This document shows positions 8,878-10,062 of a DNA stretch of 64,000 nt, piece by piece. The stretch spans positions 1 to 64,000 of the forward strand of contig NJBI01000011.1 of NCBI GenBank assembly GCA_005222975.1, read 5' to 3'. The translations under genes were made by a program, and so were the position numbers. The first letter of the stretch is position 1, and every line of letters starts with the position of its first letter. The DNA comes from Promethearchaeota archaeon Loki_b31 (GTDB lineage Archaea; Asgardarchaeota; Lokiarchaeia; Sigyniarchaeales; SOKP01). A model generated the notes under the pieces. The model ran no database searches. It saw only the letters and a program-made list of their open reading frames with translations, and was not told the DNA's origin.

Positions 8878-9078
8878 ATAGGAAATGTACCAACTATTGA
8901 AGAATTGGCGAGTTATATAAAGGATTACATTCTAAACGGTGCTTATGGAGGTGAGTGGGCAACCGATGGTGTTAAGGGTGCGACTCGTAAGGCGATTTAT
9001 GAAGAATTAGAGTTGTTTAAGTCTCAAGTCCTAGGGCAATTAGAGTATAAAGGCGTGTGGGATGCGAGTGGAGGTTAA
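8878..9078 (+). CDS. Fibre/spike segment 1 (66 aa, probable ATA start; not in ORF track)
   Basis: AAGGAGG 7 nt before ATA; GNVPTIEELASYIKDYILNGAYGGEWATDGVKGATRKAIYEELE...LEYKGVWDASGG*. Confidence 0.65.
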   Translation: MGNVPTIEELASYIKDYILNGAYGGEWATDGVKGATRKAIYEELELFKSQVLGQLEYKGVWDASGG

Positions 9079-9600
9079 TAAATTATGAGTTATCCGAGTG
9101 ACCCAGAAATAGGCTGGTATTATGTGGTTAGTGTTGCTGGTGAGATTGGTGGTGTTATGTATGAGGTTGGCGATTGGATCGTGTGGAACGGTACGACTTG
9201 GGATAGGATTACGGGTAATCGTATAGTGAATCTAAACCAAATTCTGATGAGAAAACATGCTGATTTACAAGAAGTTTTAGAAAGTCAGCATCATGTTAAA
9301 ACGGTTTCTGGGGAAATAAGTTTGGCGGGTCTGTTGGAAAAAAGTCATGGTTCGTTAACTAGTGTTACAGCTGATCAACATCATCCAAAGGTGCATGGTG
9401 ACGAAGCACATTCTTCTGCTATGGGTTATCTGTTCTATAAGGGTGGTTGGGATGCGAGTGGAGGTTAAAGAATTATGAGTTATCCGAGTGACCCAGAATT
9501 AGGCTGGTATTATGTAGTTAGTGTTGCTGGTGAGGTTGGTGGGGTACAATATGATGTTGGAGATTGGATTGTGTGGAACGGAACGAGTTGGGATCGAGTT
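9046..9600 (+). repeat. Direct repeat, 390-nt period, spanning both stop-restart junctions
   Basis: TGGGATGCGAGTGGAGGTTAA..AATTATGAGTTATCCGAGTGACCCAGAA.TAGGCTGGTATTATGT at about 9058 and 9448. Confidence 0.95.
9085..9468 (+). CDS. Fibre/spike segment 2 with His-rich repeats
   Basis: SYPSDPEIGWYYVVSVAG..VGDWIVWNGTTW; HADLQEVLESQHH and HGSLTSVTADQHH; ends YKGGWDASGG*. Confidence 0.75.
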   Translation: MSYPSDPEIGWYYVVSVAGEIGGVMYEVGDWIVWNGTTWDRITGNRIVNLNQILMRKHADLQEVLESQHHVKTVSGEISLAGLLEKSHGSLTSVTADQHHPKVHGDEAHSSAMGYLFYKGGWDASGG

Positions 9601-10062
9601 GTCGGGAGACAGTTGGTGTTACCAATTGGTGCGATAATAATGTATGATGGTGTAGGGATAGTGGATGCGGGAACTCGTACTGTTCAGATTGGTGACGAGG
9701 TTGGCGATGCTTTCAAAATGTATGGTTGGTATGTTTGCAACGGTCAGGCGGGAACTCCTGATTTAGAGAAGTTGTTTGTGCGGGGTGCTTATGTTTCTGG
9801 TAATGTGGAAGGTTCTGACGATGCTGTTGTGGTTCAACATAATCATCCAGCGAGTCAAGTTGCTCATGCTCATGGTGTACCGAGAACAGGTAGTGGTAGT
9901 TCAACGGGTAAACTTGATGTTACTGAAAGTTATGCGACGAGCGATCAAACCTGGACTAAGGATGCACAGCCGGTTATTACGGTTGATAATGAAGGTGTTT
10001 CTGGTGTTGATAAGAATGTTCCTAGACATTATAAGTTGATTTATATAAAAAGAATGAGTTAG
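9475..10062 (+). CDS. Fibre/spike segment 3 with phage tail-collar-like domain
   Basis: LPIGAIIMYDG..GWYVCNGQAGTPDL..FVRGA..HNH..HAH..NVPRHYKLIYIKR. Confidence 0.8.
   Translation: MSYPSDPELGWYYVVSVAGEVGGVQYDVGDWIVWNGTSWDRVVGRQLVLPIGAIIMYDGVGIVDAGTRTVQIGDEVGDAFKMYGWYVCNGQAGTPDLEKLFVRGAYVSGNVEGSDDAVVVQHNHPASQVAHAHGVPRTGSGSSTGKLDVTESYATSDQTWTKDAQPVITVDNEGVSGVDKNVPRHYKLIYIKRMS

What the first reader, a model, noticed from the sequence alone, without database searches (positions are those of the whole stretch)
8878..10062. Viral fibre gene cut twice at the same point of a repeated domain by an SD-stop-restart cassette
Seen: three ORFs share one reading frame. At both junctions the sequence reads YKGxWDASGG, then TAA NNA ATT ATG, then SYPSDPExGWYYVVSVAG..GDWIVWNG (inserts TAATAAATTATG at 9076 and TAAAGAATTATG at 9466). 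The Gly-Gly codons GGA GGT are also a perfect Shine-Dalgarno 9 nt before the restart ATG. From recall, YKGxWdas..yP...GxYYVVSvAG..GDWiv.NG is normally one continuous domain in phage fibre proteins. Inference: the break is programmed rather than decay. Each subunit would end in a short strand that completes the half-domain starting the next subunit, giving a head-to-tail, non-covalently linked modular spike (donor-strand-like). Segment 2 carries both halves, so it could self-polymerise or be gained and lost by recombination across the 390-nt repeat. Readthrough or hopping is an alternative.
Basis: partly seen in the sequence, partly recalled or inferred. Interest (0 to 1): 0.9.

Follow-up and report, generated by a model that had tools for sequence, protein, structure and literature searches.

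The report
Archaeal virus fibre split into modules
A small virus integrated in an Asgard-type archaeon makes its host-attachment fibre from three separate genes cut in the middle of the same small protein domain, so the pieces most likely snap together end to end, while close relatives still make the fibre as one protein.

Summary
The cut is conserved: 19 different junctions in 10 related virus sequences all read stop + 6 nt + start at the same loop, while 13 proteins of the same family and 57 copies in other phages carry the domain unbroken. The junctions behave like real gene ends: three different stop codons, a second stop in 16 of 19, one GTG start, one N-terminal extension, and a Shine-Dalgarno kept while the last residues change. 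No conserved hop codon or splice motif exists. Both halves are under purifying selection, and the model puts the cut just after the first strand of a compact fibre domain. Best reading (0.72): three separately translated subunits (anchor, His-rich shaft, tip) joined by strand complementation; binding is inferred, not shown. A two-piece relative lacks the shaft, and the two acceptor halves have no fixed difference, so mixed fibre lengths are possible (0.3). One such joint is known in phage Tuc2009, and this scan reported the principle on other DNA for other domains; I found no description for this domain or virus family.

The parts
8839..9078 (+). ORF1, 79 codons: conserved N-terminal (presumed virion-anchor) region ending in donor strand 1; start codon reads ATT here
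   Evidence: Alignment A6 with 17 relatives, 67-96% identity; upstream context; eight 79-82 aa clusters all ending at the same residue
9031..9075 (+). Donor half 1 (first beta-strand and turn of the joint domain)
   Evidence: Model strand E8-14, turn 15-17; pN/pS 0.08
9070..9075 (+). Shine-Dalgarno GGAGGT written in the last two Gly codons of ORF1
   Evidence: Duplex -10.5 kcal/mol with the anti-SD; first Gly codon GGA/GGG in split forms, never GGT
9076..9087 (+). Stop - 6 nt - restart cassette 1 (double stop TAA TAA)
9085..9468 (+). ORF2, 127 aa: acceptor half, His-rich shaft repeats, donor half 2
   Evidence: Alignment A1, relatives of 97-157 aa; repeat count 1-3
9088..9216 (+). Acceptor half in ORF2 (loop plus five strands of the joint domain)
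   Evidence: Model; pN/pS 0.17
9256..9384 (+). Two His-rich 13-residue shaft repeats, 30 residues apart (possible metal-bound trimer core; inference)
   Evidence: the same repeat lies inside the unbroken fibres P0166, P0174, P0022
9421..9465 (+). Donor half 2, with Shine-Dalgarno at 9460-9465
   Evidence: pN/pS 0.12
9466..9477 (+). Stop - 6 nt - restart cassette 2
9475..10062 (+). ORF3, 195 aa: acceptor half followed by a collar-type fibre tip with a variable C-terminal loop region (presumed receptor binding)
   Evidence: PHROG tail fibre E 4e-8, tail collar fibre E 5e-6; alignment A2
9046..9594 (+). 159-nt direct repeat, copies 9046-9204 and 9436-9594, 88% identical
2335..10799 (.). The ~8.4-kb provirus that carries the fibre genes; right attachment core TGAAAAGA at 10792-10799
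   Evidence: Collinearity with L024, L026, L027, L106; empty site at the end of contig C35 and both ends in L027

Best explanation
The three ORFs are separately translated, probably translationally coupled, subunits of one virion fibre. An ancestral single fibre gene (anchor - joint domain - optional shaft - tip) was cut in the loop after the first beta-strand of the ~55-residue joint domain, by gain of a stop, a 6-nt spacer and a start codon, with the Gly-Gly codons adapted as a Shine-Dalgarno. The C-terminal strand of ORF1 (or ORF2) completes the N-terminal half-domain of the next protein without a covalent bond, probably three times per joint if the fibre is a trimer. ORF2 carries an acceptor at its start and a donor at its end and works as an insertable spacer; ORF3 is an exchangeable tip. 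Shown: split, conservation, selection, position of the cut, existence of 1-, 2- and 3-piece forms. Inferred: separate translation, binding of the halves, trimer, role in host attachment.
For: 19 distinct junctions in 10 virus sequences all have stop + 6 nt + start; stops TAA 14, TAG 4, TGA 1; second codon also a stop in 16; start ATG 18, GTG 1. Last residues vary (GG, GV, EV) while a G-rich SD stays; the first Gly codon is GGA or GGG in 18 of 19 and never GGT, although GGT is 131 of 201 Gly codons in this virus and is used there by the unbroken forms that have Gly. L074 has four extra residues after the start. pN/pS 0.08-0.17 on all four halves. AlphaFold2 model of the unbroken domain, pLDDT 91: strand 8-14, then the cut after residue 18 in a loop whose length varies from 10 to 21 residues in relatives. 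The whole domain including that strand matches phage fibre and spike proteins (BFVD E 3e-5, TM 0.7-0.8; Atlas TM 0.86). In 124 unbroken copies 7 of the 13 strongest covarying pairs cross the cut (weak, low depth). 13 unbroken family members, a two-piece form L078, and two tip types found in both split and unbroken forms. All outgroup viruses are unbroken, so the split is derived. Precedent: BppU hairpin completes a sheet of BppA (PMC4742702). Coupling works at short gaps in archaea (PMC10666635).
Against: No protein, read or structural evidence for the real products. Junctions share ancestry and recombine, so the 19 are not independent. Nothing obvious enforces the order 1-2-3, since the acceptors have no fixed difference. 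Matches to solved trimeric domains are weak (Z 3-5). The residue after the start is always Ser or Gly in split forms but also Val, Asn or Asp in unbroken forms, which a plain non-covalent joint does not require. No capsid protein was identified for this virus, so a virion is inferred.
Confidence: 0.72

Rival explanations
1. Translational recoding (bypass of the 12 nt, or stop read-through) makes one long fibre polypeptide, at least part of the time.
For: All three ORFs stay in one frame and the gap is exactly 12 nt in all 19 junctions; removing it restores the unbroken sequence; the loop tolerates extra residues.
Against: Two successive stops in 16 of 19, and all three stop codons used. A landing codon matching the take-off codon just behind the gap exists in only 4 of 18 junctions. 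No unusual RNA structure at either junction, z from -0.5 to +0.9. Conserved start codon with an ATG/GTG exchange. A fixed 6-nt gap is also what SD spacing demands.
Confidence: 0.08
2. The proteins are made separately but do not chain in line: ORF2 and ORF3 are independent or alternative decorations, or the donor strand has another partner.
For: No binding data exist; acceptor halves hold five of six strands and might fold alone.
Against: Donor strands are kept at the very C-terminus of two different proteins under strong purifying selection; all 26 proteins ending in a donor and all 25 starting with an acceptor belong to this arrangement; unbroken relatives show anchor, joint, shaft and tip in one chain.
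Confidence: 0.1
3. The pieces are ligated covalently after translation (for instance a ubiquitin-like or transpeptidase reaction joining the C-terminal Gly-Gly to the N-terminal Ser or Gly left after Met removal), restoring the original chain.
For: Most donors end in Gly-Gly, as ubiquitin-like proteins do (own knowledge); acceptors always begin Met-Ser or Met-Gly; ligation would regenerate the unbroken sequence exactly.
Against: Ends in Gly-Val and Glu-Val occur in three junctions; Gly-Gly is already present in unbroken forms and is explained by the SD; one acceptor has a four-residue extension; no ligase gene was recognised in the virus.
Confidence: 0.06
4. The 12 nt are a micro-intron removed from the mRNA by the archaeal tRNA splicing endonuclease.
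For: Archaeal host; constant length; removal restores the frame.
Against: An exhaustive scan of intron lengths 9-60 and 33 offsets found no conserved bulge-helix-bulge; the best full motif occurred in 6 of 18 junctions and none of the top candidates was 12 nt long.
Confidence: 0.03
5. Decay or assembly error.
For: The contig looks chimeric at its left end, and ORF1 starts with ATT in this copy.
Against: Same cut in nine other sequences from different samples and assemblers, with different spacer letters, under purifying selection.
Confidence: 0.01

Closest known systems
Lactococcus phage Tuc2009 BppU C-terminal hairpin completing BppA domain 2 (PMC4742702)
   Same: Two neighbouring virion genes; the C-terminus of one completes a beta-sheet of the other and so attaches an adhesion protein.
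   Different: A single joint in a titin-like sandwich of a tailed-phage baseplate; there the receiving domain is C-terminal in BppA. Here the joint is repeated, in line head to tail, in another fold, with unbroken alleles in close relatives.
Donor-strand complementation in chaperone-usher pili (own knowledge)
   Same: A terminal strand of one subunit completes the fold of the next; a subunit with both parts can polymerise; tip and anchor carry one part each.
   Different: Ig fold, N-terminal donor, needs chaperone and usher, single-chain thick. Here a C-terminal donor, a small non-Ig domain, no chaperone or usher seen, and probably a trimeric viral fibre.
Unbroken joint domain in phage tail fibres and spikes (BFVD and Atlas matches); weakly, N-terminal domain of Geobacillus virus E2 ORF18 (7chu, Z 4.8, rmsd 2.5, 51 residues) and collagen XV/XVIII trimerization domain (Z 3.1-4.0)
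   Same: Same sequence motif and predicted fold; occurs in fibres, often in several copies.
   Different: Continuous in all 57 copies sampled outside the split group. The link to the collagen trimerization fold is only a lead at these Z scores; that fold also occurs in a phage tailspike (PMC8822698).
T4 gene 60 translational bypassing
   Same: Two ORFs separated by a short non-coding gap that starts with a stop.
   Different: No conserved matched codons, no stimulatory structure, 12-nt gap, and a selected SD plus start codon.
Described Asgard viruses: Skuld-, Wyrd-, Verdandiviruses (10.1101/2021.07.29.453957) and NMV1-3 (10.64898/2026.08.12.739948)
   Same: Presumed Asgard host; some wyrdviruses have an HUH Rep.
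   Different: The passages read describe no ~8-kb integrating element with this gene set and no split fibre; no packaging ATPase or known capsid was recognised here.

Membership tests
Strand-complemented protein chains (donor-strand type) | One subunit lacks a strand of its fold and another subunit carries that strand at a terminus | tested here: met
   The model places the whole first strand on the upstream ORF and the other five on the downstream ORF
Strand-complemented protein chains (donor-strand type) | Subunits are separate polypeptides | tested here: met
   By sequence signals only: double stops, three stop codons, ATG/GTG, selected SD; not shown at protein level
Strand-complemented protein chains (donor-strand type) | Physical binding of donor to acceptor | not testable with these tools
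   Needs binding or structural data
Strand-complemented protein chains (donor-strand type) | Homopolymerisation of the middle subunit | not testable with these tools
   Sequence allows it: no fixed difference between acceptors; no direct evidence
Chaperone-usher pili | Ig-fold subunits with N-terminal extension, chaperone and usher genes | tested here: not met
   Donor is C-terminal in a 55-residue domain; the 8.4-kb element has no such genes by Pfam or PHROGs
Programmed bypassing (T4 gene 60 type) | Matched take-off and landing codons | tested here: not met
   4 of 18 junctions
Programmed bypassing (T4 gene 60 type) | Stimulatory stem-loop at the take-off site | tested here: not met
   Folding no better than shuffles
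Archaeal BHB introns | Conserved bulge-helix-bulge at the exon-intron borders | tested here: not met
Collagen XV/XVIII trimerization fold | Structural match over the whole domain | tested here: inconclusive
   Z 3.1-4.0, rmsd about 2.5, 45-49 residues
Collagen XV/XVIII trimerization fold | Homotrimer | not tested
   Only monomer models were made
Phage tail/collar fibre proteins | Collar-type domain and variable C-terminal tip | tested here: met
   PHROG 8469 E 4e-8 and PHROG 1800 E 5e-6 for ORF3; variable tip region in A2; Pfam Collar only E 0.13 in one member
Skuldviruses / double jelly-roll viruses | DJR capsid protein and packaging ATPase | tested here: inconclusive
   The conserved 248-aa protein has no match in PDB sequences, PHROGs or Atlas and was not folded; no ATPase recognised

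The most novel reading that the evidence does not exclude
The joints are promiscuous, so one virus makes a mixture of fibres (anchor-tip, anchor-shaft-tip, anchor-shaft-shaft-tip and longer) whose length is set by subunit ratios rather than gene length, and co-infecting or resident proviruses can exchange tips at the protein level: a chaperone-free polymerising viral fibre that arose recently from a one-piece gene.
Probability: 0.3. Interest if true: 0.85.

Novelty: new variant of a known kind. Interest (0 to 1): 0.66.

Why it matters
Viral fibres are normally lengthened or retargeted by changing the gene. Here one family holds one-piece, two-piece and three-piece versions of the same fibre, at 70-85% identity in neighbouring genes, which catches the birth of an inter-subunit strand-complementation joint from a single domain and makes it testable with proteins of 79-195 residues. 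If the middle piece polymerises, fibre length would be tunable after translation. The joint could also serve as a small natural split-domain connector. The carrier is a family of small integrating viruses of presumed Asgard archaea that I did not find described.

Tried and rejected
Complex prediction of the ORF3 acceptor (48 aa) with the ORF1 C-terminus (35 aa), one copy each: no verdict, score 0.26 against a mark of 0.32; not used either way. Full-length model of unbroken P0021 was poor (pLDDT 43) and not searched. No solved structure by sequence for the joint domain, ORF3 or the 248-aa protein; no Pfam family for the joint domain; no PDB fold match with Z of 5 or more. The junction DNA pattern and the family proteins were not found in IMG/VR or GTDB contig scans; of 161 genomes of the class only one other carries a family member, a fibre without the joint domain (L109). 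No Rfam match in the provirus. Sigma-70 promoter scan uninformative for an archaeon. Trees did not resolve whether the split arose once: split forms lie in one sub-group (91/99) together with unbroken L106; monophyly neither shown nor rejected, p-AU 0.31. Paper searches found no description of this split; PMC3048824 was not held. Within-genome homogenisation of the repeat was not evident: 0.85 within against 0.83-0.84 between same-position copies.

Full report
Observation. Window 8878-10062 (+) translates in one frame with stops only at the two junctions. Both read GGA GGT, a stop, six bases, ATG (TAA at 9076 and 9466), inside a 159-nt direct repeat of 88% identity and 390-nt spacing.

Setting. 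The genes lie in an element of about 8.4 kb (about 2335-10799) with strong strand-switching GC skew, collinear with contigs from several other samples. It is a provirus: in L027 both ends carry the core TGAAAAGA, and the end of contig C35 of this genome is the empty site. The host is archaeal (aEF-2, aCPSF1); Asgard affiliation is my inference from a weak, below-cut-off Sel_Asgard hit and small GTPases. The 375-aa ORF at 3314-4441 has HUH-like motifs (by eye, no family hit). The best conserved protein (248 aa, 71-85% identity) has no database match, so a capsid is presumed, not shown.

The domain is normally whole. Searches returned 13 proteins of the same virus family in which anchor, domain and tip are one chain; three of them read GG directly followed by SYP, so the split form differs by exactly 12 nt. 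Of 88 domain copies with a recognisable first strand in fetched loci, the 31 split ones (some loci redundant) all belong to this family and the other 57 are continuous. An AlphaFold2 model of the unbroken domain (72 sequences, pLDDT 91) shows six strands; the cut falls after residue 18, behind strand 1 and a short turn, in a loop of 10-21 residues in relatives. The fold, including strand 1, matches phage fibre and spike proteins and, weakly, trimeric solved domains such as Geobacillus virus E2 ORF18 and the collagen XV/XVIII trimerization domain (Z 3-5). Covariation in 124 unbroken copies puts 7 of the top 13 pairs across the cut, three in one register against at most one in shuffles; depth is low and relatedness is not controlled. 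ORF3 continues into a collar-type fibre tip; ORF2 holds one to three His-rich repeats that also occur inside unbroken fibres.

The split is conserved and looks like true gene boundaries. Nineteen different junctions from ten sequences all have stop + 6 nt + start. Stops are TAA (14), TAG (4) and TGA (1); the next codon is also a stop in 16; the start is ATG in 18 and GTG in one. The last residues vary (GG, GV, EV) while a purine-rich SD persists. The first Gly codon is GGA or GGG in 18 of 19 and never GGT, the commonest Gly codon of the virus (131 of 201) and the one used there by unbroken relatives. One acceptor has four extra residues after its start (L074). All four halves are under purifying selection, pN/pS 0.08-0.17. 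These junctions are related by descent, so the counts overstate independence.

Rivals. Bypassing lacks conserved matched codons (4 of 18) and RNA structure. Read-through would have to pass two stops. No conserved bulge-helix-bulge exists for any intron length from 9 to 60. Covalent ligation is suggested by Gly-Gly ends and Ser/Gly starts but contradicted by the GV and EV ends. Decay and assembly error are excluded for the family.

Modularity. L078 has only ORF1 and a tip, split once, so donor 1 is paired directly with a tip there. Its tip is 74% identical to tips of unbroken relatives and 43-49% to most split tips, which points to recombination inside the acceptor half; both tip types occur in split and unbroken forms. 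The acceptor halves of ORF2 and ORF3 have no fixed difference; the donors differ at three positions upstream of the conserved core. Nothing in the sequence clearly forbids ORF1-ORF3 or ORF2-ORF2 pairing, but shaft length is also varied genetically (97-157 aa) and no tandem ORF2 genes were found. All outgroup viruses are unbroken and have the fibre gene in line with the 248-aa gene; split forms lie in a sub-group with a divergently placed fibre gene that also contains unbroken members, so the split is derived; one origin is neither shown nor rejected.

Mechanism. Most likely three coupled genes make anchor, spacer and tip, and each C-terminal strand completes the next subunit's half-domain, probably three times per joint in a trimer (0.72). 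Short gaps support reinitiation in archaea (PMC10666635), which would favour near-equal amounts. Binding, trimer state and host attachment are inferred.

Comparison and verdict. A single joint of this kind is known from phage Tuc2009 (PMC4742702) and the principle from pili. Earlier notes of this scan report it for FN3, PKD and DUF11 domains on other DNA (unchecked here apart from the Tuc2009 paper). I found no description for this domain or this virus family in the papers searched. New variant of a known kind; interest 0.66, raised by the coexistence of one-, two- and three-piece alleles, limited by the lack of direct binding evidence.

Noticed in passing
window 2335-10799; L024-L031, L073-L079, L096-L107: A family of 7.5-8.7-kb elements with an HUH-like Rep, a highly conserved 248-aa protein without any database match, and a fibre gene; no integrase, ATPase or known capsid recognised, yet integrated at several host sites. 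Not found in the IMG/VR scans or the papers read.
   Followed up: partly
window 10792-10799; G000 C35 end; L027 673-684 and 9200-9215: Attachment core TGAAAAGA: same host site occupied in another assembly (L027) and empty on contig C35 of this genome, so the population is mixed. L099 instead has a 15-bp repeat at its ends.
   Followed up: partly
window 1-2330: GC 48% with bacterial-type polysaccharide genes, unlike the 30% GC archaeal DNA right of the provirus; the left attachment site is missing. The contig is probably chimeric here.
   Followed up: partly
G000 C35:2073-2763 (L001): A remnant of about 700 bp of a related provirus (end of Rep and left end), 80-83% identical, at another host site.
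   Followed up: partly
window 8839-8841; L024 near 6112; L025 near 5746: ORF1 reads ATT where most relatives have ATG or GTG; may be a weak start that lowers the amount of anchor relative to shaft and tip, or a mutation.
   Followed up: partly
L096-L105 versus window 7919-10062: The fibre gene block is inverted relative to the other genes in the window's sub-group; in outgroup viruses it is in line, upstream of the 248-aa gene.
   Followed up: partly
L109:892-1689 and L098:1482-2519: Further fibre variants: L109 has anchor, His-rich shaft and a different tip without any joint domain; P0166 has anchor, whole joint, shaft and a third tip type.
   Followed up: no
L027 8627-8806: A 180-nt stretch matches window 2844-3023 in inverted orientation near the other end of the provirus.
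   Followed up: no
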